This document shows, piece by piece, positions 8,318 through 37,200 of a stretch of DNA of 42,513 bases (positions are counted from its first letter, which is position 1; each line of letters opens with the position of its first letter). The stretch is taken from assembly GCA_003971905.1 (NCBI GenBank), contig RSEE01000058.1, forward strand, positions 372,001 through 414,513. Direction: 5' to 3'. The translations under genes were made by a program, and so were the position numbers. The stretch comes from Moniliella sp. 'wahieum'. Lineage: Eukaryota. The notes under the pieces were generated by a model. That model searched no databases and was not told the origin of the DNA. It saw only the letters and a list, made by a program, of their open reading frames with translations.

Positions 8318-9696
8318 GCCTCTAAGAAGGGTCGAACGGCCAAAAGCTGGTGGGACGAAACTAAGAAAGGATGCCCAACTACAGTCATGATAGGTGATAG
8401 AGGAAAGCCACTGCAGGTACGGTTAGTGAGGTGCCAGCTGGATGGTACTTGTTCCAACTACTATACATGGCCATGCCTGACAAGGCAATGGTTATTCTGA
8501 GGCCCTCAGTTCCCGCAACCTAACCACGGAGACCATCAACTGATGTGAACACTCGTCACCTGAGGCCTGCGGCCTGATGAACGCGACGAGTGCTGAGCAG
8601 ACCATCACCTGCAACACCAAAACAAGCCATCCCGACGCTGAGGTTCCAGTTTCCAACCTAGCGCCGGACGCTGGCCATGGCAGCAGCAGCAAGGGTGGTG
8701 GAGGGCTGTGACATGTCACATGTCATGTGCGAGCGAGACTGGTTGAGGTAGATTCGCATTTGGACCAAGGAAAGCCCAGACAATTTGTTGCAACTCAGCC
8801 CCAGCGCTTGCCTCAGTTGAAAAAAAACTAATAAGCGCCAAGCCTCTCGCCATCCCACACAGTAAGCACGGATATGAACGTTTCAACGGGTGCGTTATGT
8901 TCCCCTGGGTTCAGATCTCAGATTGCAGAATGTCAGGTCTTCACGCTTCAGATCGATCCGATTGCAGTGGCTCTGCTGCTCCTCTGCACCAACCGACGTG
9001 GGCTCAAACGGCTGAGTCGCTGTCTGGATGCCGGCCAGTACTCTGTGCCAGCAGTCCTTGGTCTTATAGAACGGCAAAGGCCATGGCATATCTGCCTTCC
9101 CCGTCATTTACCCCCGCTCGCAATCGCTCTGAAAAGTATACGGTGCCTGGCCCACTTGGCCAAGTAGCCCCCTCCTCCTAGGGAGTAGCCACGATAATCG
9201 AATCAGAAGGGCACAATAAGGGACTATGTGTGACAACTACAGCCTACCGCGACAACCACTCCGAGGTCAAATTGGAGCCATACGATGAGAGAATCACAGG
9301 GAGCATCCCTCTTGAGCCTACAAAGGGAGACGGTTGGTGCAGTGATTTGTGAAGATGATGAATCTTCTGCCTTCAGCTTCAGCGCCGAGGCATGAAGAGA
9401 AGAGTGATTGCAGAAATCAAAAAATACAGCACGTGTTGAGGGCGGGGCCCTAGGACAACGGGGAACAGGGGAACACAGCACGGTGAGCCAGCCCATAGAA
9501 ACTAGCTTCGGTACCCCCTGTGGCCAGATGGGGGGTATCCAAAATGGCCACTGACGCCAGTTTACTGAGGGATCAGGGAATAGAGAGATGGTGTCCAGTT
9601 CAAATGAGGCTCTGGCATGCCACATGTCATGTGAAACTCCAAGCAAGCGGGTAAAAGGGGAGAGGAAGTGCACCATTACCGGTTACCAGCTACCGG

Positions 9697-10198
9697 TTAC
9701 CGTCGACGCAGTAAGCTGGCCATGAGGACTCCCCCGATGGCCGCAGCACCAGCCGTGATGGCCATACCAATGTACCCCTCTAACATAACGTCAGTATGTG
9801 ACCACACACAAAGCGATCCCGACATTACCCTTTGCGACATCTCGGTCAATCAAGGCCCCAAGGCTCTGCGCTTGTTGGTTATTAGGTTCGCGGGAAAGTA
9901 GGAGCGAGTTGAACTTGCGCGCCTCGTCAAAGTTGCCTAGCTTGTAGTGCCCCAGGGCAAGGTAGTAAACGCATTCTCTCTCCGTCGGCTCTTTTCTTGG
10001 CGGTAAATGTCGGCAAAGAGACTGACTCCTTGGACCATATCTTGGCGCTGAGGCGACTTGACCAGGCCCCAGGCGTAGTTGAACGTAGTCTGCCCGACAC
10101 GTGACCTTGCGAAGCTTCCTTCTCATATTGGTTGCGCAGAACGGCAAGCTCGGCGGAGAGAGCGCCTCGGCGACGTCGGCGGCATACGGAAGCGACAT
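9697..10198 (-). CDS. FIS1: Mitochondrial fission protein Fis1 (TPR + C-terminal tail anchor); intron 9780-9828
   Basis: [13 protein letters not shown]...[12 protein letters not shown]...[10 protein letters not shown]...[77 protein letters not shown]; intron GTAATG...CTGAC...TAG. Confidence 0.93.
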
Positions 10199-12071
10199 GG
10201 GCGCAGGTGGAGGTGAAAAGAGGACCGAGCGGCGGGCGGTGGCAACGCGGGGATGCGGCGGGGCGGAGCAGCGCGCAGAGGCTCCCGCCAAGAGCATCCC
10301 ACACCGGAAACAGATCGAGGCTAGATATGAAATTTCAGGGGTGCCTGCCGACATGACGTCAGCCTCGGGCTACCCGCCTTCTCCAGCAACGAAAGGTAGT
10401 CAACTATAGGCAGCGATTACAGACGAAGCCTGCATAGGAGACGGGTGTTCCTCCACCTCGCCGATGCTGCTCTGCGTGAGCATCACGCGTACAGCGAAAC
10501 TTCCTTCCTGGATTGACCATCATCCACACTGCCACAGCCTCCTCCTCAACGAGGACCCACGGAGAGAGTACGGAGATGCCACTGCAGCTCGTTCAATTGG
10601 GCTTTGGCGGGAGAAACACACCAATATATGTGGCAGCACCGGCGACGTCATTCTCTTTCAATGGACCGTCTGCGCTCTCAGCCTCTGCACCTCACACGAG
10701 AAACGCTCAACAGGACACTATGCCCAACCAATGGCATCACGTGGGCCACACAAACTCAGAGTAGTTGGCACGTTCCACACGACTAGGTACACCATGCCGC
10801 TCTGCGTTTCGAACGGCTTGAGGTGACTGCCGGGAACACGGCGCATAAACGTATGTGGGTACCAGGAACTCATCCGCTCCCCCCACAGTTGGGACAGTAC
10901 CAGTAACTGCGAATGTATTCTTCTTCAGTTGCTAAACCCGGTCCCAGGCGGGAGAAAGACGAAGGGTGTGGGCGCTGCGCTTCCAGTGTGCCAACCGACT
11001 TCGGCAGCCTTGTTCGTTGTGGGATGGTTTCTGTCGTGATGCGTGCTAGCCAAGAGAGAGGTCGGAAAGCCGTCAGCCACCGAGCCGCACCCCATGATGT
11101 TGTAAGAAGAAGCATACGGTGAAAAGGAGACGAGACACGTTGGAGTCATGTTCAATGGCGGTGATAGAGCGCAGAGAGAGGGTGGATGAAATGCTCGAAT
11201 GCGGAGGTGGATGAAACGCTGCACTACATGCAGAATCTTGCTTTCTTTATACAACCGCTTAGCCTGGCATCGTTCAACCCCATATTGTCTCCATCAGAGG
11301 CCTGGACCCTATCGCCGCATAGTAATTTACGGTCGGTGAGTCCGCACAGCTTGTGGACATGACAATGAGGCGTTGTGGATGGTGATACGGACTCTCCGTC
11401 TGTGCCGTCAAGGCGGCCGGTGCTCCGTCCAGACGCCATTATTGCAAAAGCTGCCATTATGTTGGAAAGGGGGACCGATTCGTACCGTTGAGTAGTAGCT
11501 CGATTAGCAGTGGCGATATAAGGCGCAGTCAGACTCTTTACTATGTGGGCACTCCTCAGCTGCGGTTGATAACGGAACGCATCAGGCCCCAACAACCCCA
11601 AGAGCCCCGCCAGCCCTGTATATCCTTCAATTCGTTGACTTGGTAATGCACAACGGTCGATCTATCAATATATCGTCAACCAACAGGACATCATCCAGCG
11701 TGATGCACACTCTTTTCTCTGCCCAACATGATCTAAGGTAGGTCGGGCGTACCTCTGGCGCCTTTTCTTTCTGCAGGTGTGGGCGACACTTCCAAACCAA
11801 GTACGGGGTGGCGCTGGGGCTAGAGTACAAGTAGCGTAGCCCGTAGCCCGCAGCCCGCAGCCCGCAGCCTGCAGCGCTGTGGTATCTTTTGTTTGCGCAA
11901 CGCGACGTTTTCGGGTCCAGGTCTCAAGCAGACGTTGACCCAGATACATGACTGGCGTTTGCCGTCATGACCTCGACCTTGGAAAGGAGGTGCAGAGCTG
12001 ATATCTTGGATGCATAGACCACCACCATGGTAGTAGAAAATAGGGAAAGGGGGAAAGGAAGGGTAAGAGGC

Positions 12072-12097
12072 GGGGGGGGGGGGGGGGGGGGGGGGGG
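12072..12097 (+). repeat. Poly-G homopolymer (26 G) within a purine-rich tract
   Basis: Direct count; flanked by further G-runs (GGGGGGCAAGGGGGAG). Confidence 0.9.
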
Positions 12098-12500
12098 CAA
12101 GGGGGGCAAGGGGGAGAAGTATGAATGAGGATCTAGAGCCCGAAGGATACATGGGATACATGGTATCCTGCGGGGGTTCGGGGATGAAGTGAAAGCATAA
12201 CCAAACAGGTGCGCAACTGGAATCAGGCGAATAGAATCCGGACGTTGGGTGGGGTGAGGGGGGAGGAGAGGGAACACTCGAGCTGAAGCTGTTGAAGTTG
12301 GTGAAGGTGGGGAAGCGGAAGGAATAAGGAGAGGAGGGGAGGGGAGGGAGGGGGGAGACGTGCAAGTGGCAAGGTGGGCGCAGCGTCAAAAAAAACAAGG
12401 AACTGATCATGAATAGCATAGCAACGAGGTGTTCAAACGCCACAAAAATAAGAACAAGAACAAAAACAAAACCAAAACCAAAAACATGGACATCTGAGCA

Positions 12501-14085
12501 TCATACGTCGTGCGTGTCCACCACGATCTGCGGGCCAGCACGCATGGTGGCGAAGGCGGTGGATTGGGTGGGGCGGTGCGAAGCCTTAGTGGGTGACGGA
12601 GCCATGACCCTGTCCATCACCATATCACCGTCGTCGAGCGTGCAGTCGATCAAGGGGGAGAGGACGGTACAAGGTGTGTAGGGTCCTAGGTCCTCTTCGT
12701 CCGTACCGACCGTTCCCGCCGTTTGGGGAGTAGGCCAACGTCCCAGGAGAGGGGAGATGGGGTGTGTCGGATTCCATGCGGCGACCGCGGGCGGGCGGGG
12801 TGGCGACCAAAGTAGGAGGCGAGGCGAGTGCAGGGCTGCGTTCAACAAGGCCAACGAAGTATGGTGATGCACTTTGCGGAACGCGTTTTGCACAGCAACA
12901 TGGGCCGCAGGGAACAGCTGGCTTACCAAACTCGACACATCGTCGTTCCGCAACGCATTGTGCAGGATCAGCACCGCTTCACATGCCGACGGCTCTAGCT
13001 CATCGTACGCCCGACTCATCGCGGACGATACAGGCCCAGAGGGGGACAACAGCACATCGCCAACCAGAGTGCAGCCGTCGTGACCGAACTCGGGGGGCAA
13101 CGGCACGAGCTCCCGCTGATACAAGCTTACATACAATGTCAGTCGGGCCACCGTGACCACCCCAGCCGGGTTGGGATCATTCAGCAACATGGGTTCGGTA
13201 GCGAGATAGATGCGCAACCAAGCCTCGTGCGACGGACGTCCCAGGACGTAGCGCAAGGTGGAAAGAATGTGCGCCTCCATTTGGTAAAACGCAGACTGTT
13301 CCAGCGAATTGCAAACACATGGCCACTAGCTCGGCGGGGGTAGGAATCGAATCCTTCTCGTCCTCGTACTTGGCTGCAATCCACATGCGGCCGTGCCGGC
13401 CAGCTGATAGTGCCGCTTCAGTACCACCCGTTTGCTTAGGTACCGGTCCAACACACCCACTGCCACATAGAGCGTCTCGGGACGAAACTCAAACGTGGCG
13501 TGCATCTCAATCATGAAATCCAGGACGTAGGGCCGCAGCTGCCAGGTGACTTCGGGCTGGGAGTCCATCATGCCCAAAGCGGGACGGGTCGATTCCTGCA
13601 GGGCGACACCGGAAGAAATGAGGTCAACATGTCAGTCCCTGCACCAATGCAAAGAGAGTACAGGAGAGAGAAGGGGGGGGAATCGCACCTCCATCTGAGC
13701 ATGTGGGCCACAACCTCGCTCTGGTACTCGATGTCCAAGAAAGCATCTGCCTCGGACGAGTAGGATGCGCGCGTCTGTCGAACAGAAGGGTGATTATGGA
13801 GGACGGGGGACAAACGACGAAGGCGAAAAGTGGGGGTGATGAAGGGAGGTGGGTACACGAGGTAAGGCGACCGACGGCGGGTGCGAGGGATGAGCGGGAA
13901 CAAAGATGGGGGCGGATTGGTGTGCATTATGGAACGCTGGACAGAGACGCTGCGGCGCACTTGAGAGAGCAGGGCGGATTGACGCTGGGATGCGGCCTTG
14001 ACGCTGCGGGCGAGTGGAGTGGGCGGTGGTGCTGGAGATGGTGTGGGTGCGCGCCAGGCGGGAGTCGGTGTGCTGATGGCATCAT
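12501..14085 (-). CDS. G1/S-type cyclin (Cln1/Puc1-like); intron 13596-13688; start uncertain
   Basis: Cyclin box across frames: EYQSEVVAHMLRME|ESTRPALGMMDSQPEVTWQLRPYVLDFMIEMHATFEFRPETLYVAVGVLDRYLSKRVVLKRHYQLAGTAA-MWIAAKYEDEKDSIPT...MEAHILSTLRYVLGRPSHEAWL; Pro/Ser/Thr-rich tail. Confidence 0.87.
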
Positions 14086-15104
14086 GGTGAGTGGGGTGGT
14101 GAAGGAGTGTGTGAATAACGAACGGGGGGGGGGGCGGCAGCGCGCAGAGAGGGAGGTGGCCCTCTCAGCCAGTCAAGAGACACAGAGAAACGGAGAAGGG
14201 GGAATGGTGGTGGTGGGTGGTGGGGAGGGGGGGGGATGGGGAGGATGGGTAAAGGAGGAAGGACGCACAAGAGATCCAAAGGCGAGTAGGCTGGCTGGCC
14301 TACACAGGCGAGGTGCGGGGGGCTGTGTCTGGCGGGAGGGCGGCACCAGAGGACAGGAGGCCGAGGCACAACCCTATCGGCCCCACCTAGCGCCAGGGGG
14401 AGGGGCGAGAGGCCCCAGTGCAGCGAGGATGGAGAGTGGCGCTGGGGGGGGTCCCCTGTGTCGAGCGAGCAAGGGGTTAGTGCAGGCAGTGGAGCAGTGT
14501 GGGCAGGGGGGCGGCATGGTGCAGGATGCATGAATGGTGCCGCTTGTCCGGCGCCTGCGGCCTCGCCCCAGACTGCGGCCGTAGCGCGCCTCGCGCCCGC
14601 ACCCTCCGATCGCAGTGCCGACTCCCGATTGCTGCGCTCGGCGCTGCACCCACGCTGCACTCGGCGTTGCACTTCAACTTGCTGATAGGCGAGTGCATGG
14701 GCGATGGAAGATGGACATCGTAACGCCCCGCCACACCGGCAACGCACTGCTGCGGACGTCCGCATCAGCATCCCCTCCCAGGATCCACACCATGCACCCT
14801 GCCCCATCCCATCCCTCCATCGACCATCCCCCGTCGGGCTTGCGGCGGCCTCCCCGCAGCCCAAGCGCTGCATCCCAGCCACAGGAGCGCTTGGACTGAA
14901 CGTACTGAACGTTCAAGTTGAACACGTTGAACGTTCAACGTAGCAAACATTCAATTCAATGTCAACCGCGCGCTTATCCTGCCCACACTGCCCTGCACCA
15001 AACGTACTTCCCTTGCGTTCTTCTGGCGCGCGTTCCGATCCGATCTCAGATCAGCCCCCCTTCACCTCAGGACCCCACTCCACTCCGCCCCGCCACGCCC
15101 CACC

Positions 15105-15690
15105 ATGGCCCCACGTCGCTCCGGTCCAGGCCGATGGACCTGGTCTACGTGTGCTTCTTGCGATGCACCTCGTGGCCACACTGCTGATCGACGGACAGGA
15201 CGTGTACCCAGCACTGGTGCCGGCGTGGCTGCGCCAGGTGCGGGAGGAGTATGGGCTCAGTCGGGCGATTCCCGTGCTGCCCCACGCGTTTACGCCGGCC
15301 TTTGCCTGGTTCACCTCACTCATCTGGATCGAGGGTTGTTCCAAGTACCTGTATTTGTCCTCGGCATCCTTGCCCTCGTACGCGGTACGTCCCACCCCGG
15401 CTCCCTGCGTTGCATTGCCGACCACCATAAGTACTGATCCCCTCCCTCACGGACAGACGACAAGCGCATCTACCCGCTTCTCATTGCGTATGGCACAGAA
15501 GGTGCGTATCCACCCTGCAGTGCGTATGGATGGTCCTGTTTGGTCCGGAGCATAGCAGCCTCTCCGCCCAGCAGATCGCCATGCTCCTTCGTCCTACCTG
15601 CCCTTCTGCCTCCTCCCAGGCTGGCTGGCGATCGATTGGGCCTGCGCACCAGTCGTCTGCTGGACGGCTAGCAACCCCAACAAAGGGTAG
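15105..15690 (+). CDS. TMEM97/sigma-2 receptor-like EXPERA-domain membrane protein; intron 15385-15456; end approximate
   Basis: RSRPMDLVYVCFLAMHLVATLLIDGQDVYP...AWFTSLIWIE(G)LFQVPVFVLGILALVR|DDKRIYPLLIAYG...YLPF: hydrophobic segments and conserved D/E residues typical of the EXPERA family. Confidence 0.75.
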
Positions 15691-19600: not shown

Positions 19601-19837
19601 GACCTGGGCGGCACGGGCGAGGTCGGAGGAGTAGATGGCAGCAATGGGGGTGGCGGCAAAGTAGGAGGCGAGCGCGGCGGTCTGGGCCTTGCCGTCGGGG
19701 GCAAGGGGGGCGTCGGTGACGCCGGTCCAGGTGGTGGGGTCGGGGATGGCGGCCTGGGCATTGCGGACGAGGGTGACGAGGAGGGAGCGTAATGGGTGGA
19801 AGGGCAGGGGGGCGGCGGGCGGCGCGTCGAGGGGCAT
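16626..19837 (-). CDS. Putative fusion: N-terminal degenerate histidine phosphatase (PGM/TIGAR-like) + HbrB-like (Bit61/PRR5/Protor) domain; C-terminal end approximate
   Basis: Phosphatase motifs LVTLVRNAQ, DAPLAPDGKAQ, IYSSDLARA, LREQNFGAAEG, GESLEEV, IVIVSHGIAL, NHTGW, VLEKNNTDHL. HbrB-like motifs W..VCSKVLPLFAG, AQVWTEFWQQVVPYVEAVFVPL, LNVRHLCL, ARLLQMIGLCSS. The two are joined by the stop-free ORF 18209-18979. Confidence 0.68.
16662..16709 (+). repeat. (GTGCGA)n hexamer microsatellite, ~8 units
   Basis: gtgcgggtgcgagtgcgagtgcgaatgcgagtgcgagtgcgagtgcgg read directly. Confidence 0.85.
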
Positions 19838-20997
19838 GCTGCCAGCCAGCGGCGCTGGGGCGCGGATGGAGGCGTGGCGGGGGCGGGGGGGGGCGTCGGC
19901 GGAGGCCGGGATGGGGCGCTCGCTGGGCCACAATGCATAACCGGCAACCCAGTCCCCACTCAGCCTGCGGCGGAGCAAGCCACGCCGCTTATGTCAGCCG
20001 TTGTCTGCTTGCTTCGCTTGGCTTAATTGGATCGTCGGAGGGTTAGCTTTAAGCGGTCTTCTGCACGGCGGAGGTCTAGCGCTCGCCGCGCCCAATGTTC
20101 AACGTTCAACGTTCAAACTGAACGTTCAACACGCTCAACTGCTCCACAGAGGGCAGCGCAGATCATATCCCCCTCGCCTAACATGCTCCCTCAGATGACG
20201 CTCCGGCGCACTCCCACCCAGCTCATCAAGTACTCCACCGCTCTCATCTGGAATGTAGTCTTGCATGCCCCCCCTTTCTCTTGCAAAACGAAATGGAGTA
20301 ACAATTGTAAAAAAATACTAAACTTGGAGAGCCGTTTACACTTGTTCTTCATCTGCAATATATACACCAACATGGAGTTCAGGTTTCCCAGTATAGCGGT
20401 AAGTGACTACTCACAAAGGTATGACATGGTCGAACCATCGGCCCGTTGGGGTCCATCATTTCCTGCACCATCAGTCTCTTCCCACTTTCCCCATGGACAT
20501 GGCTGGAAGGATCGCACTCCCCCACAGAGGCCCCCCTCATTCATATCCCTCTGTCAAAAACGGGATGGGGCCTCTTCTCTTCGTCGGAAGTATTATACAC
20601 TCCCCCCTGGTATCACTCACTATATACCCGCACCGTATACCCTCCTGAAGTCCTGAATTGGCATCCGTCTGCGTCATTAGAAAGGCCAAAAAAGGCAGCA
20701 TCTCTTCATCTTCACGCTTCAAAGCTCTCCCAGGCTGCACACCGGCTCAAATCCTTATCATTTACAGATAGTAGTGACAATGGGGAGCGATTCCTGTGAC
20801 AAGAATATAAAAGTAAGGTAGCCACGTAAGGAATGCCTGTTTACTACCACAAACGTTTTCCTCAACAAAAGTAACTATAGTCCGCGACCACACAGAGTAT
20901 GTTGAACAATGGTCCATGAACGTCATGAACGTTGGCACATTGACGCATTGACGCAGCCCCCCAACGGGCCCAAAAACCTGCCCCAACGGTGCAGCAA

Positions 20998-21020
20998 TAA
21001 CCGGTAACCGGTAACCGGTA
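20998..21020. repeat. Palindromic heptamer array (ACCGGT+A)3
   Basis: taaccggtaaccggtaaccggta read directly. Confidence 0.9.
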
Positions 21021-21949
21021 CCCCAAGACGGATGAGTACTGATAGTGACTGTACTTTGAGATCTGACGGATGGTTACCGATTACGCGATATGTTACAGAA
21101 GAGGTGGGTCTGCCAGTGATGGTGATGGTGATGATGATGGTGATGATGGTGGTGGGGTGCCTGGTGCCTGATGACGCTGACGGTAAAGCTCCTCAAACAC
21201 TTGTACTCCTTACACTTTTCTATACGAGAGTAAAGAGGTGAAGCTTGTCGCTTGAAGACTAAGGCCTAAGTGCCTCAGGCCTCAGGGGCCAAAGGCCTAC
21301 TGTTGAGGCAGTATATCACGTGTCACAAATCTGGCGAAAACAGGCAACCGAAATGTAACTGGCATTCCCCTGTGACATGGTGACATGTGAGAGATCGTGA
21401 GATCCTGAGAGATCTGATAGGCCAAGAGGCACTAAACCTAAGGGATCTAAGGCCTAAGGGGCCTGAGGTTCTGAACCTTGAAGGCCAGCCTGAAAGGATG
21501 GGGGGATACGAGAGAAGCACTACGCTGAGCGATCAATGGGCGAGCGCGATGATCGGCCACTTAAGGATAGCCCAGAACCGCGGTTGTCCGTTAACGTTTA
21601 ACTGAGAAGTATAGCTGCGCTATCAAGCTAAGGACGTTGCATGTACAGGTGGAAACAGTCAGAGATAGCTTCTCGTAAGCCCCTGAGATGTGACACCTGA
21701 GGCCTGACGCTAGTCCGACCTTGAAGCTTGAAGCTTGAACGCAACATGGAGAAGAGGGAAAAGGAGGGGAACGAGGTGTGACATGTGACGGTATGTAACC
21801 AAGTAACCAATCCGCAGCGCCCACAGGTCTCGACAAACTGTTGAACCAGTTCCCGTTGCCAGCCATATGTGGCTGTGATCAAGCCATCACGCCAAACAGT
21901 GATGTCACATGCCACCCACTCCAACATAGCACGGGTCAGGCCCTGGGTC

Positions 21950-22003: not shown

Positions 22004-23041
22004 TGGCTATGCCCACAGGATGTGGGGAGGGGGTTAACGGTTTGGACAGGCTTGAAGCTGGACGCTGATGATGCATGAACTCATACGACGGGTCTTGATG
22101 CCAAACGCGAAACCGAAATCAAGCTTCAAGAGCAAAAGAAGGTAAATGACGGATAGGGGGTTTTGGTGGCGCTGTGGTGAGTCAAAATAGACAGTGCTAG
22201 TACCGAGAGAGAGGAGGGGGAAGCGGAAGGGAGTGGGATCTGAGAAGAGAGGAAGACGAAGCCATGAACGCCGAGACTTGTAGAAGGAGGCACGTCAGCA
22301 CGTCAGCTTCCAGACTTGCGCCCAGACGGAACCAGAGGTGCTGGGTGGACAGCACTCCTGGAAACGAAAGAGTCCGGATATGCTCTTATTGGCACCGTGA
22401 CATGGTGACACCTGCCCTTGTGTTCCTGAGAGCCGCACTACGCCCACAAGGAAGAGAGAGGGACAGCAAATTGCACCAGGTACCCGTCACGGCGTCACGA
22501 TGTCACGACGTCAGAGGACATGGCGCGCACGCCGGTGGATGGATGTGGGTATGGAGATTTGTTTTGGTGATGCACGGATGCACTGATGGCACTTGCTGTG
22601 GTCACCAGCAGAGTGACCTCTCGTAGCGGGATTGCCACTTGGCCGTTTCCGACATGGCGGCAACATGCCCCAGTACCGGGTAAACGGGGCCCGGGTGGCC
22701 GGTCGTGCTCAGGGATTGAATATTGATGCAGGAGGGCATGGGAGCAGGGAGTGGGTAGTGAGTACCGAGTAGTGAGTAGATGTCACATGTGCGGGTGATG
22801 TGACAGGTGACCAACATGTGATATGTGATCATGCATCATGCATCAAATTCAACACCACCGTGCGACACAAGAGATGCGCTGAGCTGCCGAGCTTTTCAGC
22901 CTCGGAGATCCCAGACTCTCCGACTCGCATGCGCTCCTGGCGTGTTACATGTTACTTGTGACGTTGAGTGTGCAGGTATACGTCCCGAGTATTGATGTGA
23001 GATTCAGATCGGGGGGAGGGGTGGCAAGTGGATTGGGCAGT

Positions 23042-23228
23042 GTTGAACGTTGAACGTTGAACGTTGAAGCTTGAAGCTAAGCTTGAAGGGTGGTTGCAGG
23101 TAGCTGCTCGGCTGTGCTATTCGGCTGCGGGGAAGCTGCAACTTGCGGGCCAGCTGGCAACAGCGTGCAACTGCCCATTCGGCATCAAGCTTCAAGCTTC
23201 AAGCTTCAAGCTAGTCAAGCTTCAAGCT
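23042..23228. repeat. Palindromic heptamer arrays: (AACGTT+G)3 then AAGCTT+G at 23042-23088; (AAGCTT+C)n at 23185-23228
   Basis: gttgaacgttgaacgttgaacgttgaagcttgaagct and tcaagcttcaagcttcaagcttcaagct read directly. Confidence 0.9.
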
Positions 23229-23885
23229 ACGCTTCATTAATCAGTACTCGATGCCAGCCTCTCTCCAGCCTCACCCTCCCACGCACCAGCCACGGCGGCT
23301 GTGCGCGGAGCCATCCGCCATCTGTCCCCGCCACGTCTCAGATCTCTCTCAGCTCTCACCTCTTACCCGCGCAGCGCTTGCTCACCGCCCGCGCCGCCCC
23401 CCGCTCGCCCGCTTTTTGCCCGCCGCTTTCATCTGGCACCCGCCTCGCTGGCACCCGCCCAGCCATCCTCAGCCTCGGCCTCTGCCACGCCGCTGGGGAT
23501 ACACTCCCTCTTTCAGTTTCTTGCACGCCTCAAGATAGCCGCGCCACGCGCCACGCACACGCCTCACGCCTCACGCCTCAGTCTCCACGTTGATTCCACC
23601 TTCAACGTACCTGCAAGCTTCAACCCTCAACGTTTCCATAAACCTAAACCTGCCCCTCCTTTTAGTGCCTGCTGCCCACGCCGTTGAGCGCAACGTACAA
23701 ACTCAGTACCCAACCACCGTCCCCTCTCTGCTCCCGCTCCGCCACTTGCAACGCCCGCTGCTGTCTCGTAATCCGTCCGCTCTTCGGTCCCGCGCCCCGT
23801 CCAATCAAATAACATCGACCACAAGTCCACAACATTCAACCCCCCACTTGCTCGGCCGCAGCTGCCCACCACGATACGCCCAGCC

Positions 23886-25592: not shown

Positions 25593-26265
25593 TAGCCACG
25601 CGCGCCAGACGGCTTGGATTTCGGCTGCGCCCGATCCGCAGTAACGACAACTCACGTTTTTTATTCATTTACCTCAATCCGTCCGACAGATGTTGGTTAG
25701 AAGGAAAGCACGTGGCTACTACCATCTAAGATCTAAGATCTGAGGCCCGCCTGTGCCCTTGGCGTACTAGCCCTTGTTTTGTCTTCCCTTCCATCGCTTG
25801 GGCACACCGGTGTAGACGTTGGGCGGTGGGGGTGGTTCGACCGGTGGAGTTAGATTGTGGACCTGGGCCTTGGATTGAGGCTGCAACGAGGGAGGATAGG
25901 TACCAAGGAAACCAGAGGTGCACAGAACGAATCCCCTCCCACGAGCCAACCGGGCCCTCTCCCGTCAATATCAATATAACAGCCGCTTTCCTGTGGGATG
26001 CGCGACGGCGGAGCGGGCAACGGGGCGGGCAGCACGGCGGGAGTCATGCCGCGCTGGAATAGTCAGCCTTAAGTTACTCCCTATATACCACGTCAAATCA
26101 GCGCCTGGGTCAATTGGATTAGCTCGATCATCAGCGAGGGGCAATTCCAAAGCCTATCTAGTCTCCTAGCTATTACAGCTTGATCCGCACAGACGAGTTA
26201 TCCACCCACCACCACCCACCACCGCTCCCACCACCACCACGCCCCACATCCCACCCACGTTGCCC

Positions 26266-28712: not shown

Positions 28713-28746
28713 ATTATCGATTATCGATTATCGATGATCGATTATC
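28713..28746. repeat. Palindromic heptamer array (ATCGAT+N)4
   Basis: attatcgattatcgattatcgatgatcgattatc: four in-register ATCGAT with spacers T,T,G,T. Confidence 0.9.
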
Positions 28747-30962
28747 CCACACTTGCCACACTTCCCACATCCACCGTGATTCATTGATGCATCCCTGGGT
28801 CACATGTCACCCTGTCACAGGCGCGCCAGAGGATGCGGCCAAAAAGTTGACAGATATGTAGTTACCGAAGATTATATCCAGTACCGGGTTACCGGGTTAC
28901 CAAGTTACCGGGTTACCAGGCTACTCCCATCCTGCATCCTCCCCGACCGGCGACCGTTCTTCCTCCTCAATGTGCTTTTGAACTTCGATGCGGATGGTCT
29001 CACCAGGTCTGAGATCTGATTTCTAAAGTCTGTACCCCGTCGCCCGTGGAATTGGTTGTGGTCATCGCGGTTCAGACGTTCAGTCCCAATGTTCAGTATA
29101 TTCATCTTCCCGCTTCAAGCTTCAAGCTTCAAGCCCAGGCCTCATTGCCTGATGTACTTACATATGGGACCCGCCATCACCTCTATATAGTCCACTAGCC
29201 TCCCTGCGAACAAATGCATCATAGTCACTAGCAAGTCACTTGTCACTATAGTGTCACTATGACGGCGTCACTAGGTCCTCGTCACTAGCCTCACTAGCTC
29301 CATCAACTATGGCAGTCACTCTAGCCACACCGGCCACCGCAGACCCCCATTTCATGTTCTGCTTACTACTATTGAAGAACTGAGTCCTACGAGGACCGAG
29401 GACCGAGGATGTCCCTGGACCGAGTCCGGGGGGACTCACAAAACTCACTACTCACTGGGCGTTCTTCACTCTCCTTCTCAGGGCGCCAGGTTGATATATC
29501 TTGATCGGTTCGGAGCGGCACGGATTCATCCAGGTCCTCTTTTTGATTTGGGGATAACAAAGTGAGAACGCACCGTAAGCCAGTCAGAAGCCGAACGCCT
29601 ACTCTGAGAAGCTGTACAAAGACCTATTGAACTGAAAGCGGACCACCCCCTCGCTCTTTTGTTTTTTGTACCAAAGCACGATGATCGAATCGAGATGGTC
29701 GACGACTGGAAAAGCAGCGCAGACAACGGTGATCATAACCATTGGACGGATTCAACGGATTGGATCAATGCGATCAATGTTGCAATGAGTTCAACTTGTC
29801 TGTTGCCGCACAGGTCGGGGCTGAGGTCGATGATCGCGACAGAGGGCTAGGAAAGCATCCCTTCTGGGCGCTACAACTCCCGAGAATCGGCGCTTAGCTT
29901 GAATTTCGGAAGGGCTGAAGCTTGAGGCTTGAAGTTCTGAGTCGTGTGGTAGCCTAGCGCGTCGTGGGGTCATGCGAACGATCTCAATCATTGATGGATA
30001 GGATGGCAGAGCAGCGACACTCGGATGGTGCGGCACAGCGGCCGGGACCGAGACGGAGGAAGGCGCGCCAAAAAGGGACAAAACAAGGCATGAAACGGAT
30101 CAAGCTTCAAACGCAAAGCTTTATAAAGGGAACAGGATAAAGGATAAAGGACACTAAAGGGTAAATGATAAGCAACTGTCGGAGGCACATATGGAAGGAG
30201 CGGATGGAACTTGGAAGGAACGCGGGGGGGGATAGGGGAAGTCATAGATGCGGGGGCGATCGGGATGTGGAGGGCAAAGAGAGTCGGACTGACCATCGAT
30301 CTTATGGAATCGAGATAGTTGATAGGATCGGAGATGGAATTGAATTGAATCACAATCATAGGTCCGGCATCATCATTCGCACCTCATCGCATCGTATCGA
30401 ATCGCATCGCATCGAATCGAGTCAGTCAAGCCGAGTCGAACATTGCGTCGAATGGGACCAATGAATTATACAACCACATGCATCCATGAAAGGGCGTCAA
30501 CGCGTCTACGTGTCAACGTTCAATGGGATCCGCGTACTTCCGTACTTCCTTCAACATTACAAAAACAAAATAATCACCATAACGGGCTAGCGTATAACGT
30601 TCACCGTTACTCCTCGACCAATCCTCCTTGCTTCATCCGTCCCACCAGTCACAGGTGTCTAAGTTTGTACATTCCCTGTGGATGAGGCCATTCGCTTGAC
30701 AGCGGGTCGAGGGCCAGAAGGTACAGGAAGTACAGCAAGTACAGGAGAGATGGAGAAAAACGAAACATGGGCAGCGCCAGAACGGTGGCGATCCAAGAAA
30801 ACGATAGCGGTGACAGGGAGAGGGGGGAGGGGGGTGCCAGAACGGTGGCTCGACAGGGGTGCCTTGTATCATACTGAACCAGGTCGGGGCAGTTAAATCC
30901 AGATGATCAGACGGGCGGGTGGGCGAGTGGAGGAGGGGAGAGGGGGAGAGGGGGAAAAGCCC

Positions 30963-32359
30963 TTACAGTTGTTGGGACTGAAAGAGATCAGGGCGAAAAA
31001 TGGGACTATTACTTGATCTGCCAGGTTGCTCGGAGTACGCGTGCCAGAAAGTGGCGGAGAGAAAAGGAGTAGATGCAGGTCGCGGAAGGAATAGGCGGGA
31101 AAGGAGGTGGAGAAGTAGTGGCAGAAGCAAGAGACGGAGGGGAACGTTCAACTTCGCTTTCATGGGGCGCGTGGGGCTCGCGTAGCTGCAGCAAGGGGCG
31201 CGGCTTGCTCCGAACCTGGCCCTTCCATTGAAGGGGGAGTACCTGTTTCGGACGCGTGGGACGCTTTGCCCGATGTAAGTTGATGGCCCGACAAACGTTT
31301 GCGATGCACGGATGATTGGCACGTCGCACCGATCCCTAAGCGTACGCACCGTCCACACGGCCGTGCATCGTCACAGCCCTTGGAGGAGCGTTGACAGGCC
31401 AAACGCGTTGCGCACTTGCTTTCGTTTCTTGCGTGTTGGCGGTGGCACCGAGCTCGTTTCGCCCACTACCGGCACGGAAGGGGAGGAAGTCGTCGTGTCG
31501 GCCGGATCGGCGGTGGGATGTGCAAGGGGCACGTTGGCAGGTGGTGACAACAACTGTCCTCGCCTCTCCCTTTCTCCCGGACGGGCAGGATCGACATTCC
31601 CTCGCTCTTCTTGCTCATGCGCATACGCGCTTGCGTCCAACGACGATTCCGTTGACCAGCGCAGCATGTCGGGGTGTTGGATCAATCGTACTGACCCTGT
31701 TTTGGCCCGGGAGCCCGATCCTTGTTGTTTTTGCCACAGATAGGGGGGAGGCGAATCGAGCGCCACTGAGTCAGAAGGTACCGACGCACTCGACGGTCGA
31801 CCCCCGGCTCCGACCCACCAGTGCGCCAGGGAGCGAGGCACGCGTAGCATCGCAGGGTGCCCGTGGTGTTCCCTGTTTCTGGTGTGGACGTCAACCCTGG
31901 CAAGGCCGGCGGATCCGGGCCAATGGGTTTCCCAGGGCGTACGTGTCCCCACGGAGCTGATCGGCGCGCATAGGCCGGTGCTAAAGAAAGGCGGCGGCGG
32001 GGGACGGACCCAAGGGCGAAGAGGGCTGGGTGGAGCTGGCGGAGTGGGAGAAGGGCAGGGGAAGGGCGGGGGGGGTGGGTGCGGAGGCGCAGAGGCGGAG
32101 GAAGGGATGGGTTGGAGTGGGGGGAGCTGTGCTGGTCGCTGGTGCTGGGTGCAGACGGTAGCGCTGGACACTGAGCTCCCATGCCGGATCGAGCGAGCTG
32201 CGGTTCTGCAGAAACGGGCGGACAATGCGCAGACGGGGGTAGGGATAGGAGGATGAACTGGATGGGGGGGGCTTGCCGATCGGTCGCACGCCGCTGGGAT
32301 GGCATGCACGAGGCCGGGTGCCCGGGGTGCACCAGAGCCTCCTGCGTGCCAAGAGACAT
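30963..32359 (-). CDS. Zn(II)2Cys6 binuclear-cluster transcription factor; boundaries approximate
   Basis: RKKRKQVRNA(C)LACQRSSKGCDDARPCGRCVRLGIGATC at ~31320-31435. The first Cys needs a 2-nt restoration (gcg t[gt] ttg). Candidate ATG at 32359, followed by Pro/Ser-rich sequence. Confidence 0.72.
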
Positions 32360-32380
32360 GGGGGTGGGATGGTAGTGAGG

Positions 32381-32453
32381 GGAGGAGGAGGAGGAGGAGG
32401 AGGAGGAGGAGGAGGAGGAGAGGGAGGAGGAAGAGGCGGAGGAGGAGGAGGAG
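32381..32453 (+). repeat. (GGA)n trinucleotide microsatellite
   Basis: Long ggaggagga run with two interruptions, just upstream of the candidate Zn2Cys6 start codon. Confidence 0.9.
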
Positions 32454-34101
32454 GGGCAGGGGCAGGACAGCGTGTGTGGCTGGCGAGCAGCAGCAGCTGG
32501 CTGTGCTGTACGGGAGGGCGCTCTGTTGTCGAGCGGGGCGGTTTCCTCTTCGGCCGAACGAAGGCATCTGGCAAGGCAGGGCAAGGCAGGCTCAAGACCC
32601 AACAAGGCGCACCCAGCAGCACCATCGGCACAGGAGCCCCGCCACACGGCCCCCGTGCCAGGCGCACTCCATGCATGCGTGTTACAGTCTGCGACAGCTG
32701 CTGTGCGGGCTGCTGCGGGCTGCTGCGAGCGGCTGCGTCGTGTCTGGCCGGGCACGTACCACACACAGTGCCCGTGGCGGACGACAGAATGCAGAATGCT
32801 CGCCGCCGCATGTGCGCCCTGGGGCCTCCCCGCCTCTGGCCGCCTCCCCGCCGCAGCCGCAGCCCGGCGGGCGCGTCGGCCAGGCACAGCGCCAGCCTGG
32901 CGCTGCTGTCTGCCAGCTCCGCCGCGGCTGCCGTGTCCGATCTGAGATTCGAGAGATCTGAGATGGCAGCAGACACGATACATACCACCCACCGCGGGGA
33001 AGGGGCAGGCACAGGGTGTGTGTGCCGGAATAGGACGGTCCCTACCCTACCTAAGTGTGGCCTGCTGTGGCCTTCGGCCTTAATCTGCAACACGCCTGAC
33101 ACACCCGACACGCCCCCAGGCCCACGGCCTAAGACACCGGTAACCGTACCCCCCTCCCGGCTTCTCCTGTCTCCTCCCGCCTCACCTCCGCCGGCTGGTC
33201 CGATGCTAGCCAAAACGCGTGCCAAAGCAGGCCAACGCGGGCGGCAAGCCTGTGTATCATGTACCATGTAATCTCTCTCGTCTTTCGAGAATCCCCCTTT
33301 CTCTCCATCCGCACCGTGGGCCATCGGCCATCGACCGTCGACCAGCATCGACCAACTCTCGCCCTCTCGCGAACATTCACGCACAAGAGTGTTTATGTCC
33401 TCGCTGATATCAGAGAAGAATTAATCGATAGATCCCGTGTTCATGCGTTCACGGGTAAATCATCGGTATCCTTGGTTTGAGAAGAGCGCGGTTAATGATC
33501 ATCGATCATCGATCATCATTTAACGTTTAACCTTTAAGGCCCAAGCCCACCGCGTAATGCATAACGTCAAACGTCAAAACCGAGGTTCAGCCTCGTCTCG
33601 GGCGAGGGCGCATGGCCGATGAGTTCGATGAATGAATCTTTTTACCGAGTGTACCGGGTGTACTCTAGTGTACCACATGCTTAGACACTCTCACAAGCAA
33701 CAATGTAACAATGGTACATGCCACAGGTCACATGTGCACGTCACAAGCGTGGCACAGCAGGGCATGGCCTGGCTTGGCACGGCTGTATGTGCCGGATTGT
33801 ACGTACGTCGCGCGCAGACCCGGGCAGACTCTCTTGGGTTGGAGAAAATGTCATGTCGGCGTGCTCCTGGCTACTCCTGGCTGCTTCCTCCTGGCTGCTC
33901 TCCTCCTGGCTACTCTCTGTGGAGGGCTGGCCGCTGGCGTCTACCAGCCTGTACGCTGTTGTATACCCGTCCGGCCCGAACGTCGGATCGGGCGAAGGAG
34001 CAGACCCTTCGCCTCCCTTCGCCTTCTCTGGGCCTGATCCACTGTTCGGTCATCCGGTCATCGATCCCTGATCAGACCGATCATCGATCATCTCCGGTTT
34101 C

Positions 34102-34134
<33 letters not shown>

Positions 34135-34245
34135 GCAGATCGATCAGATCTCAGATTGATCGGTGATTCGATGATATTGGATCTTAGGTCTCAGATCGTC
34201 TCAGATCCCGTGCATCATCGATCCGACGTCACGCGTCACGCGTCA
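34102..34245. repeat. Cluster of heptamer arrays: (CCACTAG)4, GATC/AGATCT-rich stretch, (ACGCGT+C)2
   Basis: ccactagccactagccactagccactag; cagatcgatcagatctcagattgatc; cgtcacgcgtcacgcgtca read directly. Confidence 0.85.
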
Positions 34246-37200
34246 AAGGCGCAGGAGACAGTCTCCTGGGCGGCTCGGGACATCACCGCCACCACCTAGG
34301 ATGCAGGATGCTCGATGCAGCCCCCGCACGGCGACACTGGAGCACGTGATGGCATGCCGCATGGCGTGTCGTGTGATGCATGTGATTGATGTGGGACATG
34401 GGACTTGGGACGCTAGCCACAGTCATTAATCACATGTCGCACTAATTGTACATCACAGGTATCACGCCCATCATGCATCACACTGGTCATGCACCGCTGC
34501 ATTGCTGATCCATTCGCGGCTCAAACGGCGGAGTCGCGACTGCGGTTGCGGCGCACGCGCCCGTCGGCGGGGCTTGAGTTTGTGGGTGTGGAGCCGTCGC
34601 TAGATGATCGATGAGGGATCGATCAGGACCGGCGCGCGTAGTGCGTAACGCGTAACGTCCAGTGCCATATGAAGTGCTCCGGAATCTGCGGTCCATCATA
34701 CTAATGGGATCTGAGACTCAGAAACTGAGAGGACAGTACAGCAGCGTGATAATTTGCCAAGTCTGCCTGATTGTTTTCGCATTGTATGGCCACAGAAGAT
34801 GCCCCGCTCATGCATCAGCCAGCGTCGGCTAGCGTCTAGTACCGACCGACCTGCACCCACACATGTTCGAGGCAACCCCGACTACCTTCTATATTTCACT
34901 CTCTGTACTCAGTACTCAGTACTCATTCATCATGCACTATGCGCAGCCAAATGACTCCGTCAATTCTAACATTAGCAATTAATGGTAACGCGGTAACGCG
35001 AGTAACTAGTAGTAATCTCATTAATCAGGCCCAAGGCAATAAGTGAGGCACATGTGAGGATTGGTGGGTGGCCCGGTCAAGCACTCGGCACCAGGATGCG
35101 CACAGGGTTGGTCAGCCGTGAAATTCCTCTCCGATTCACACGGCTGAGCGAAGAGAGGATGGAGAGATATCGATAATAATAGGACCCCACAAAACGCCAA
35201 TGTAATGGACCACAGGCAGAGCTTGCCATCCCCCAATCCGACCCAAGGCATTTGTACTACGTACAAGCATAGCCTCCCGTTCCAAATGCAGTTTTATTAG
35301 TAACCCGTTGCCGCAGTGGCATGTCACATGTCACGTCAATTCAATGTCATCTCAGATCTTAGATCTTACCCCGATCACCGGCTCATCGACTCATCCCCCT
35401 CATCCGGTTCCACTGGTACTGAGCGCCTGAACCTCGCGCAACCTCTCCACCAATGTCCACGGAAATAACGGGCGGTAACCAGTAACCGGGAACCTCTCTG
35501 CAACTTCGGGATGGTGGTGTGACACGCGTGGTGATAACTCCAGGTTACTTACAGCCATCTGTACGGTGTAGGTGACTTGAGCGCCTTAAGAGCTTAGCGC
35601 TTGCCGGTTACCAGTCATGCGAATGGGCAGTAGGAGGCAGTGGGCAACAGACTCGATGATATAGCTGCTATAGCAGACTACATGTACATACGATGTAAGA
35701 TCTAATCGATCTAAGATCTAACACTTCTCCAACTTATTAGCGCGCGATGTATGTGACATTCAACTTGGACATCTCCTGGGTGACTTGCGCGTTACGGCCG
35801 AGTTGTGCTAGTTCATTCATCGCGCCCATGTGCTCCCCGGCAAGTGTATTAGTATTGGCAACTGTTGGTACAAAAGAGGATAGCAGCAGAAATGCTTTGT
35901 CAGTGGCTTGGCATGTAGTAATTAGGGTGGATCCCAAACGCGCAGTCCTGCTTGACATATAACACTACCAAGAACATCGATCTCATGGATCTCAGATCTC
36001 ATGGATCTCATGCATTATTGCTGGCCTGTGGGGGAGGGTTACCGCTTAGGTAGATCCATTTTTTCGATGTTCTCGGATCATAGCGTGTGTGTGAGCTGTA
36101 TACCATTACATGTTACAGGCTCTACTCAAACAGGTGTGTCCCCCGTCTGTGGATTCAACGAGAGGACCACCGGTGGGCCTATCCGTCCAGATTCCGGCCC
36201 CCGATGTGCGCATCCCCTGATATGGTGTGATATCTTTACACCGGCCTGCATTGAATAAGTCTGGGGCGTCGCCTCAGCCTGTCTCCCCGTGTGGAGACAG
36301 CGACGGGCACTCCATCTTCCCACCACCGTGCACCGTTCTATAGTATACCGTTCCATAGAAGTAGCAGGGAAGCACGGATGGAATGTGCGACGGGCGAACG
36401 CTGGCAGACGGGCCAGGGAGCTCGTATTCTTCCCCAAGTCCCAAAGGGGCGAGCATTGGCCGGCGAGCCAACAGCTCCTCTACCCCCTCCGTTTCCCTAC
36501 TCACAAGAGTGGGTCACCCAACAGAGGATCCGGTGGCCGGCATGCGGCGCACCCTGTGGGAGTGCATTTCGACATGTTATAGAAAGAGAGAGGGCGAATG
36601 GGAGGTGACCAGTCTGGAAGAATACGCTCAATTCCAAAGCAGACGGAGAGTTGGGAACGTACAGGACCGCTGCTTACGGAAATAGAGTGCGAGACCCATG
36701 GAGTCCACTTGCCACCCACTTGCCAGAGGTATGTCGAACCCTTATTGTACGGCAATGACATGCAATTATAAGAAAGGCATGCTTAGGAAGGCATGCTGCA
36801 GAACGTCAAGATATGGCAAGGCGAACACAGAGCGAGGGGTCCATCTCTCTGGCCGCCTTGAATAGCGAATCGAAGTCGGTTCGAATCACCTCTTTCCCGT
36901 GCCAGGTTGGACAAGCGTGAATGAGGCGGAACAGAACGCATCCTCCCATGTATATGGAGACAAAAAGCGGTCCCGTGGGTGGGTCCAATGCGGCGATGAC
37001 AAGCCTCACTTCGATTCGGGAGGAACGTACCCACCGAGTAGGAGTATTGGCCCGAGGGTATGAAGAAAGCAACAATTGAGATGGCGACGGGCAGACTGAA
37101 AGGGAATAGCAGAAAGATGAAGGGATCAGCAGGGTAAGGTTACGGGGGTGAGAAGCGTCGGAAAGTACGGCTGAAACGGGATAGAAGATAGTTGGCTGGG

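What the first reader, a model, noticed from the sequence alone, without database searches (positions are those of the whole stretch)
8707..36010. Window-wide family of period-7 micro-arrays built from many palindromic hexamers, all obeying an A-N4-T+N rule
Seen: intergenic DNA carries short tandem arrays whose unit is a 6-bp palindrome plus one spacer. Examples: ACATGT (8707-8725, ~35320), ACCGGT (9676-9702, 20998-21020), AACGTT (14897-14941, 20093-20130, 23042-23066), AGGCCT (~21260-21300), AAGCTT (21720-21739, 23185-23228, 29112-29134), ATGCAT (22828-22845), AGATCT (25724-25744, ~35350, ~35700), ATCGAT (28713-28746, 33497-33517), ACGCGT (34227-34245), AGTACT (34905-34925). All ten hexamers start with A and end with T, so every junction is an odd palindrome centred on T-N-A. 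I saw no array built on G..C, C..G or T..A hexamers. Several non-palindromic heptamers (AACACT+C ~16360, ACGCCT+C ~23560, ACCAGT+A ~35475) and 8-mer variants (ACCGGGT+T 28883-28919, ACGCGGT+A ~34984) keep the T-N-A junction. Inference: ordinary slippage would not give this many sequences sharing one geometry. It suggests a structure-driven generator, such as fold-back or template-switch synthesis at T-N-A mini-hairpins or templated insertion during break repair, or selection for a structure-reading protein. Three units also place TGA/TAA in all three frames on one strand, which would exclude them from exons.
Basis: partly seen in the sequence, partly recalled or inferred. Interest (0 to 1): 0.78.

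Follow-up and report, generated by a model that had tools for sequence, protein, structure and literature searches.

The report
Transposon excision scars forming heptamer repeats
The odd 7-base palindromic repeats between this fungus's genes are real, and are best read as repair scars left each time a jumping gene that duplicates 7 bases around T-any-A landed and cut itself out again, often enough to create a whole class of short repeats.

Summary
Confirmed: 22 of 22 palindromic period-7 arrays in the window are A..T (0.33 expected); the pattern is genome-wide (about 1 per kb). Comparing the window's contig with its haplotype partner shows births: TNAxy becomes TNAxy+y'x'+TNAxy, a 5-base duplication plus 2 inverted bases (23 of 58 clean 7-nt indels, 12 not explicable as slippage). 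Variants stop at a 7-base duplication, which predicted an element with a 7-bp nn-TNA-nn target duplication. Such elements exist: 14 ends at 9 loci, 4 of 5 paired copies with a perfect 7-bp duplication, subterminal repeats and an EnSpm/CACTA-type transposase remnant. Best reading: flank hairpins opened 2 nt off the tip and end-joined; each scar recreates targets, so repeats grow. No purifying selection on scars. Weak points: no element in the window, few copies for tens of thousands of scars, narrower target taste than the scars, chemistry inferred, no reads. The scan noted this pattern and these elements before in other windows of this genome; those notes gave me the element's terminal motif.

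The parts
8711..8725 (.). Single scar TCA-CATG-TCA, templated from the left flank (5+2 class)
   Evidence: identical in C60
9676..9702 (.). Scar TTA-CCGG-TTA at 9676-9685 inside a decayed run
14895..14941 (.). Cluster of 9-base units: full 7-base duplication + 2 inverted bases (14895-14910, 14917-14932); two 7-nt indels against C60
16357..16377 (.).
20097..20116 (.). Two-unit array, AACGTT+C
20915..20930 (+). 7+2 scar
20998..21800 (.). Dense scar cluster (ACCGGT, AGTACT, AGATCT, AGGCCT, ACATGT, AACGTT, AAGCTT units); 21591-21600 is a one-unit gain relative to C60; 21720-21739 has two units more than C60
22069..22954 (.). Scar cluster incl. ATGCAT array 22828-22845; 22945-22954 is a one-unit gain relative to C60
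23042..23078 (.). Compound array: AACGTT units left and AAGCTT units right of one shared TGA, as predicted when the two flanks of one site each template their own unit; lies in a 200-base segment missing from C60
23185..23243 (.). AAGCTT+C array (4 copies) and two further scars
23558..23580 (.).
25724..25741 (.). AGATCT+A array; one unit fewer in C60
28713..28746 (.). ATCGAT+T array
28888..28917 (+).
29112..29134 (.). AAGCTT+C array
33497..33578 (.). ATCGAT array, AACGTT and ATGCAT scars, and a 7+0 duplication at 33565; C60 carries extra units here
34048..35027 (.). Dense scar cluster incl.
35320..35395 (.). ACATGT and AGATCT scars and a 6+2 unit at 35382
35696..35721 (.). Two AGATCT+A scars; one 7-nt unit missing in C60
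35975..36012 (.). AGATCT+C scar (35992-36001) interleaved with a 7+2 unit (35997-36012, minus strand)
36106..36115 (.).

Best explanation
The arrays are accumulated excision footprints of cut-and-paste DNA transposons that insert at ab-TNA-xy and duplicate those 7 bases. Shown: such elements exist in this genome, and the scars have a fixed, flank-templated geometry whose longest duplication is 7 bases. Inferred: on excision each flank is sealed flush as a hairpin (as RAG/Transib do), a host nuclease opens each hairpin about 2 nt past the tip, giving two non-complementary 4-nt 3' overhangs (xyy'x' on the left, b'a'ab on the right); end joining keeps one overhang and loses the other, leaving TNA + 4-base palindrome + TNA, a net gain of 7 bases. 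Slightly different trimming gives the 6-, 8- and 9-base variants and plain 7-base duplications. Each scar holds two new TNA targets, so later visits add the same unit (or, one time in four, the other flank's unit, giving compound arrays); slippage may add copies but is not needed. Scars survive outside exons and appear neutral.
For: Births: 23 of 58 clean 7-nt indels between C58 and C60 fit TNA-anchored 5+2, none with ANT, CNG or GNC anchors; 12 of them are not tandem copy changes. Lone sites are templated from one side: 116 left, 93 right, 46 both, against 18.8, 18.6 and 3.5 with shuffled flanks; plain 7-base duplications 19 against 1.3, among 671 sites. With 2 inverted bases, duplications of 5, 6 and 7 bases occur at 143, 16 and 14 per 10,000 TNA sites (five control anchors at most 1.8, 1.3, 2.0), 8 and 9 bases at background (0.5, 0.7); 4 of 19 clean 9-nt indels are 7+2 at TNA. 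I wrote the 7-bp target prediction down before seeing earlier notes. Elements: 14 ends at 9 loci; 4 of 5 paired copies have a perfect 7-bp duplication; 13 of 14 ends abut nn-TNA-nn in register; 7 of 8 loci without the one found by a TNA-conditioned query, P 6e-10 at a background of 0.036. The C23 copy (4,968 bp) has ~80-bp inverted ends, 11-base subterminal repeats and a remnant hit by a profile of 9 transposase relatives (iE 2e-10; 7 of the 9 carry PF02992). Two-unit homogeneous runs 41 against 15 compound, near the 3:1 that re-targeting predicts. Dominant +2 hairpin opening with 4-nt 3' overhangs is documented for Artemis (PMC2175297, passages); P-nucleotide footprints for Ac/Ds in fungi (PMC5873905, passages).
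Against: No such element lies in the window, in either whole contig C58 or C60, or in 140 kb of other stretches; 9 loci face about 1 scar per kb (410 on C58), some 67,000 if extrapolated to the assembly. No intact transposase was found in the one full copy read (direct Pfam scans of 7 of its frames gave nothing), though this assembly has many 1-nt errors. Surviving copies have a narrower taste: 17 of 18 flank dinucleotides start with A or T against 52% in scars, and 9 of 9 sites are TGA/TCA while 6 of the 12 births are TAA/TTA, so this family alone does not explain all scars. The C11 copy has unlike flanks and the C8 end is off register by 2. No filled-versus-scarred pair of the same site was seen. 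No outgroup: some 'births' could be later deletions. The family was reached through earlier notes that were drawn to it by its TNA duplication; of the five other loci not needed for that lead (C8, C20, C23 second end, C29, C149) 4 of 5 are in register. Hairpin chemistry is inferred from scars only.
Confidence: 0.76

Rival explanations
1. A transposase-derived nuclease makes the scars without an element residing at each site: abortive insertion and release, or action of the two EnSpm-like genes without inverted ends on C17 (partner on C62) and C34, kept by the host.
For: Very few elements for very many scars; two PF02992 genes with long frames, no recognisable inverted ends and host-like neighbours; scars are broader in sequence than the surviving family's targets.
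Against: The 7-base duplication needs a staggered strand transfer and fill-in, which the resident elements show directly; catalytic integrity, expression and selection of the two genes were not tested; a few elements hopping over long times can leave many scars (my estimate: at least about one birth per 1,000 substitutions).
Confidence: 0.11
2. A host process unrelated to transposons: a nick or staggered break next to TNA, fold-back synthesis of two bases and gap filling.
For: Can yield 5+2 on paper without microhomology; needs no mobile element, none being present in about 0.96 Mb examined.
Against: Does not explain why duplications run up to exactly 7 bases and stop, why arm lengths 1 and 3 are not enriched, or why a transposon family has precisely the predicted 7-bp TNA-centred duplication. 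Top2-type de novo duplications are 2-4 bp with no inverted filler mentioned in the passages read (10.1101/2020.05.03.075358).
Confidence: 0.08
3. The units are kept by selection as binding sites or DNA structures in promoters.
For: Strong clustering in non-coding DNA: 45% of C58 scars lie in 25 of 415 1-kb bins; 0 of 67 in the tested reading frames.
Against: Substitution rate 95 of 2,115 inside and 2,256 of 50,221 outside scars, both 0.0449; mixed pairs such as TCA..TAA and inverted pairs TCA..TGA at 7 bases are barely enriched overall (1.05, 1.09); the palindrome copies whatever flank is present.
Confidence: 0.03
4. Base-calling or assembly artefact.
For: The assembly has many 1-nt indels (1,579 clean ones between the contigs) and frameshifted host genes; reads could not be checked.
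Against: Many arrays are identical in both haplotype contigs and others differ by whole units; scars avoid reading frames; they match real target duplications elsewhere.
Confidence: 0.02

Closest known systems
P nucleotides at V(D)J coding joints (RAG hairpin, Artemis opening) and Transib excision (PMC2175297 and PMC5499845, passages read)
   Same: Even palindrome centred on the flank end; dominant 2 inverted bases, as from opening 2 nt past the tip with 4-nt 3' overhangs; minor trimming variants.
   Different: Here far more uniform, usually retained, set inside a 7-bp target duplication, and spread through a fungal genome at about 1 per kb; the paper notes that most coding joints do not keep P nucleotides.
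Ac/Ds (hAT) excision footprints in Candida albicans, yeast and plants (PMC5873905, passages read)
   Same: Hairpin-derived palindromic insertions at empty donor sites in a fungus; short arms in C. albicans.
   Different: Ac/Ds palindromes are centred on the complement of the base next to the element (odd centre); here the centre is even and a 1-base loop is not enriched (48 against 33). No hAT dimerisation domain was found (weak test).
EnSpm/CACTA elements of fungi: CNIRT6 and CNEST of Cryptococcus neoformans (PMC12810828, passages); CMCT clade (PMC12730594, abstract and section 3.1)
   Same: Tnp2-type transposase remnant, subterminal tandem repeats, CACTG near the end (CNIRT6 ends begin CACTG).
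   Different: Ends begin with two extra bases (CT-CACTG); target duplication is 7 bp at nn-TNA-nn, whereas CNIRT6 makes 3 bp, CNEST 2 bp and the clade is described as 2-5 bp.
hAT7 of rust fungi (PMC12730594, section 3.1.2 read)
   Same: Fungal DNA transposons with 7-bp target duplications.
   Different: hAT transposase; no TNA preference or footprints mentioned in the section read.
Microsatellites born by slippage (general knowledge, recalled)
   Same: Short tandem arrays with copy-number differences between haplotypes (16 of 58 clean 7-nt indels are tandem).
   Different: The first unit arises without a prior repeat and contains inverted bases; many sequences share one geometry.

Membership tests
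Hairpin-type (P-nucleotide) excision footprints | Filler is the reverse complement of the flank end | tested here: met
   17 of 42 non-tandem 7-nt indels fit 5+2 with reverse-complement filler against 3 and 3 for two null fillers; flank-templated 255 of 671 lone sites against 41 shuffled
Hairpin-type (P-nucleotide) excision footprints | An element whose target duplication matches the scar | tested here: met
   4 of 5 paired copies with a perfect 7-bp nn-TNA-nn duplication; scar duplications end at 7
Hairpin-type (P-nucleotide) excision footprints | Same site seen filled in one copy and scarred in another | tested here: inconclusive
   No element on C58 or C60, so no pair could be seen; partners of the 9 loci were not fetched
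Hairpin-type (P-nucleotide) excision footprints | Hairpin intermediate on flanking DNA | not testable with these tools
   needs biochemistry
EnSpm/CACTA (CMC/CMCT) | Tnp2-type DDE transposase | tested here: met
   Remnant only: profile of 9 relatives hits L112 at iE 2e-10 and 2e-4, no decoy hit; 7 of 9 relatives carry PF02992; direct Pfam scan of 7 L112 frames negative
EnSpm/CACTA (CMC/CMCT) | Termini 5'-CA..TG-3' (CACTA/CACTG) | tested here: not met
   Ends begin CT-CACTG at all 14 ends (the query itself began with this motif)
EnSpm/CACTA (CMC/CMCT) | Target duplication of 2-5 bp | tested here: not met
   7 bp in 4 of 5 paired copies; range from PMC12730594 section 3.1.6
EnSpm/CACTA (CMC/CMCT) | Subterminal tandem repeats (feature recalled) | tested here: met
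   11-base repeats at C11, C23, C20 and C8
EnSpm/CACTA (CMC/CMCT) | Intact DDE triad with C(2)C and H(3-4)H motifs | tested here: inconclusive
   Frames broken; a histidine motif aligns with the relatives; triad not located
hAT (incl. hAT7) | hAT dimerisation domain in the genome | tested here: inconclusive
   No PF05699 match, but no control genome rang either
hAT (incl. hAT7) | Footprint palindrome with an odd centre | tested here: not met
   Arm 2 with no loop 726 against 87; with a 1-base loop 48 against 33
Slippage-born microsatellites | New units are tandem copies of adjacent sequence | tested here: not met
   12 TNA-anchored 7-nt gains are not tandem copies; later growth by slippage is not excluded
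Top2-initiated de novo duplications | Plain 2-4 bp duplications | tested here: not met
   Mode is +7 with inverted filler; definition from passages of 10.1101/2020.05.03.075358
Protein-binding or structural cis-elements | Lower substitution rate than neighbouring DNA | tested here: not met
   0.0449 against 0.0449

The most novel reading that the evidence does not exclude
A new lineage of EnSpm-like transposases with a 7-bp TNA-centred target and RAG-like flush hairpins has been partly captured by the host (the end-less genes on C17 and C34) and now acts as a standing, self-renewing mutator of regulatory DNA, writing tens of thousands of stereotyped P-nucleotide joints with few or no mobile copies: a fungal parallel to RAG domestication.
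Probability: 0.1. Interest if true: 0.9.

Novelty: new variant of a known kind. Interest (0 to 1): 0.62.

Why it matters
If right, a whole class of short tandem repeats is born from transposon excision rather than slippage, by a loop in which each scar makes new targets. The scars are a genome-wide fossil record of past insertions and of hairpin-opening geometry, and point to flush, RAG-like flank hairpins for an EnSpm/CACTA-type enzyme, a step for which my searches listed no direct study. The element extends the target-duplication range given for the CMCT clade (2-5 bp) to 7 bp. About one scar per kb, clustered in non-coding DNA, makes this a major source of length change next to genes. Searches listed no paper describing this pattern or an EnSpm family with a 7-bp duplication; the library is partial and supplements were not read.

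Tried and rejected
Sequencing runs: none was listed, so no read check. Homologue look-ups for a host protein gave three unnamed relatives; the organism is fungal by gene content, 'smut-related' comes from earlier notes and was not tested. Own-genome searches for PF05699 (hAT), PF13358 (Tc1-like), PF13359 (Harbinger-like) and PF18759 (Plavaka) found nothing (weak tests). Scans of C58, C60 and 140 kb for inverted-end elements with 7-base duplications found none; large haplotype indels there were mostly LTR-type with 5-base duplications or unclassified. The short query gave 412 matches against 238 control, only 100 listed, mostly scars; of 5 places inspected only the C11 pair were element ends. 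Three of 17 rows (C31, C53, C113; three mismatches, terminal motif altered) were dropped as chance. Four metagenome matches to the end motif were chance. A longer-relative search with a transposase fragment found none. A 3-bp target duplication model was rejected because it cannot place xy after the first TNA; a 4+3 reading without T was rejected (T before the unit in 576 of 685 cases with A); a 5-bp model was rejected because 6- and 7-base duplications are enriched. The count of scars changed between haplotypes (160 of 379) was not used, since substitutions and errors alone could give it. No wider sequence logo around lone scars was seen (127 sites).
Full report
Setting. The window is G000:C58:372001-414513 in a 69.5-Mb, 223-contig assembly. 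Pfam hits on 9 of 21 frames tested (ZNF598-type, dsRNA-binding, expansin-like, cyclin, HbrB, C2H2, histidine phosphatase) mark it as fungal; genes are split over frames, so the assembly has many 1-nt errors. Contig C60 is a collinear partner: 381,486 bases aligned, 13,404 substitutions. I read both contigs whole and 14 other 10-kb stretches.

Observation. Confirmed. 45 perfect period-7 runs against 3.6 expected; 22 of 45 have a palindrome + 1 unit (0.33 expected) and all 22 are A..T. Elsewhere 32 of 33 and 107 of 115. The minimal unit is TNA, a 4-base palindrome, the same TNA: TCA..TCA 300 against 8.1 expected, TAA..TAA 63 against 1.0, TGA..TCA 44 and TCA..TGA 24 against 8.1; ANT, CNG and GNC junctions show little or nothing (382.5 kb, both strands). 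The window has 67 units in 53 runs, none in 13 tested reading frames. Density is about 1 per kb, strongly clustered (410 on C58; 270 of 415 bins empty).

How a unit is born. Indels between the contigs peak at 7 nt (58 clean cases, against 33 at 6 and 20 at 8). 16 of 58 are tandem copy changes. Of the other 42, 17 fit a 5-base duplication with 2 reverse-complement bases between the copies (3 and 3 with null fillers); 12 of the 17 start at TNA. Anchored at TNA, 23 of 58 fit, and none with three control anchors. So ab-TNA-xy becomes ab-TNA-xy-y'x'-TNA-xy, or the mirror event on the other strand. Among 671 lone TNA-N4-TNA sites the middle copies the right or left flank in 116 + 93 + 46 cases against 41 with shuffled flanks; 205 are unrelated and 60 are palindromes whose flanks do not match. 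Arm length is fixed at 2 with no loop. There is no outgroup, so direction is inferred.

The 7-base limit. With two inverted bases, duplications of 5, 6 and 7 bases are enriched at TNA (143, 16, 14 per 10,000 sites; controls at most 1.8, 1.3, 2.0), 8 and 9 are not. Plain TNA-centred 7-base duplications are 19 against 1.3. Among clean indels, 4 of 19 9-nt cases are 7+2 and 7 of 33 6-nt cases are 4+2 or 5+1 at TNA. From the geometry I noted a 7-bp target duplication with hairpin excision as a candidate.

The element. Earlier notes of this scan reported the same pattern in many windows and 5-kb elements with 7-bp duplications, one with a stated terminal motif. I tested this. The motif led to inverted ends on C11; a query with 20 bases of that end and unconstrained flanks gave 17 rows, 14 true ends at 9 loci and 3 dropped as chance. 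Paired copies: C23 4,968 bp, duplication GATCATG; C34 4,945 bp, GTTGATG; C35 4,856 bp, CATCAAC; C20 378 bp (a miniature copy), GATGATG; C11 4,849 bp with unlike flanks, both nn-TNA-nn. Single ends at C29, C149 and C23 also abut nn-TNA-nn; the C8 end is off by two bases. Without C11, 7 of 8 loci are in register (background 0.036, P 6e-10). The C23 copy has inverted ends of about 80 bases at 88%, 11-base subterminal repeats and four scars inside itself. Its broken frames have no direct Pfam hit but match a profile of 9 relatives of the C34 EnSpm-like protein (iE 2e-10), 7 of which carry PF02992. It works like an EnSpm/CACTA element but fails two membership features (termini, duplication length), so I file it as EnSpm-like, not as a member.

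Mechanism. Shown: target, duplication length, scar geometry. Inferred: flush flank hairpins, as described for Transib and RAG (PMC5499845, passages), opened 2 nt past the tip to give 4-nt 3' overhangs, the dominant Artemis product (PMC2175297, passages). The two overhangs, xyy'x' and b'a'ab, are equal in length; joining that keeps one gives exactly the +7 scar in either orientation. Ac/Ds footprints in Candida show the same principle with an odd centre (PMC5873905, passages). A second visit to a scar gives the same unit three times in four (my derivation); observed 41 two-unit homogeneous runs and 15 compound junctions, then 9, 2 and 1 longer runs beside 362 singles, which fits repeated visits at roughly 0.07 per site (hand estimate) without slippage, though slippage is not excluded. 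The C8 and second C23 ends sit in the second TGA of an older scar, direct sign of re-targeting. Scars show no purifying selection (0.0449 against 0.0449).

What does not fit. No element lies in about 0.96 Mb read. Nine loci face some 67,000 scars by extrapolation; births run at least about one per 1,000 substitutions, feasible for a few long-lived mobile copies but not shown. The surviving family's targets are narrower: 17 of 18 flank dinucleotides start with A or T against 52% in scars (about 1e-4, hand calculation), and all 9 centres are TGA/TCA while 6 of 12 births are TAA/TTA; the scars do lean the same way (AG, TC, TG, AC make 47%). Sister families, now lost or not matched by my query, are probably needed. 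No filled/scarred pair was seen. Two EnSpm-like genes without inverted ends (C17 with partner C62; C34) keep open a host-captured nuclease. Reads were not available.

Literature. Searches were seen as listings; six papers were opened as stated (passages, and for PMC12730594 the abstract and section 3.1). None described this pattern. PMC12730594 gives 2-5 bp for the CMCT clade and 7 bp only for hAT7; its supplementary tables, not read, may bear on this. CNIRT6 (CACTG ends, 3 bp) is the nearest named fungal element (PMC12810828).

Verdict. Real, explained with fair confidence (0.76) as transposon excision scars; a new variant of a known kind, notable for an EnSpm-like element with a 7-bp TNA target, the uniformity and density of its scars, and a self-renewing route to new tandem repeats. 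Interest 0.62.

Noticed in passing
L105:4098-6700 (G000:C17:~556100-558700; partner C62) and L106:3259-6872 (G000:C34:513259-516872): Two EnSpm-like (PF02992) genes with long frames, no recognisable inverted ends and scar-rich flanks; the C34 gene lies 8 kb from a full 7-bp-duplication element and its C-terminal frame matched nowhere else in the genome.
   Followed up: partly
L114:1-90 (G000:C8:478682): Two extra bases lie between the TNA-centred 7-mer and the element end; they equal the predicted inverted pair but also a repeat of the element's first two bases. Only one end was found.
   Followed up: partly
G000:C11:228241-233089 (L107, L108): Element copy whose two flanks are both nn-TNA-nn but differ, suggesting recombination between copies or an adjacent rearrangement.
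   Followed up: no
L113:62-439 (G000:C20:546811-547188): 378-bp miniature copy with a perfect 7-bp duplication; its end variant is shared with the C8 and second C23 ends.
   Followed up: partly
window 23042-23241: A 200-base scar-rich segment absent from C60, bounded by a 4-base direct repeat.
   Followed up: no
window 35873-35880; L106:2880-2968: C60 has a ~300-base insertion here with an 8-base duplication; an ~85-base part of the same repeat has dozens of 93-99% identical copies genome-wide. SINE-like; no tRNA call.
   Followed up: no
window 748-801; G000:C58:120084-120325: A short repeat also found inside the C23 element; the 242-base haplotype-specific copy on C58 has no target duplication and a hairpin near its 3' end, recalling a Helitron (features recalled, not tested).
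   Followed up: no
window 37321-38606 and 565-673: A 1.3-kb stretch with a 73% identical paralogue at C58:296189-297553; its last ~107 bases recur inverted at window 565-673. No Rfam match at gathering score.
   Followed up: no
window 2067-2146: tRNA gene (Rfam RF00005).
   Followed up: no
whole window; C58 against C60: Two haplotype-like contigs about 3.5% apart, with 1,579 clean 1-nt indels and frameshifted host genes: a hybrid or two-nucleus genome in an unpolished assembly, so 'decayed' transposase frames may be partly sequencing error.
   Followed up: partly
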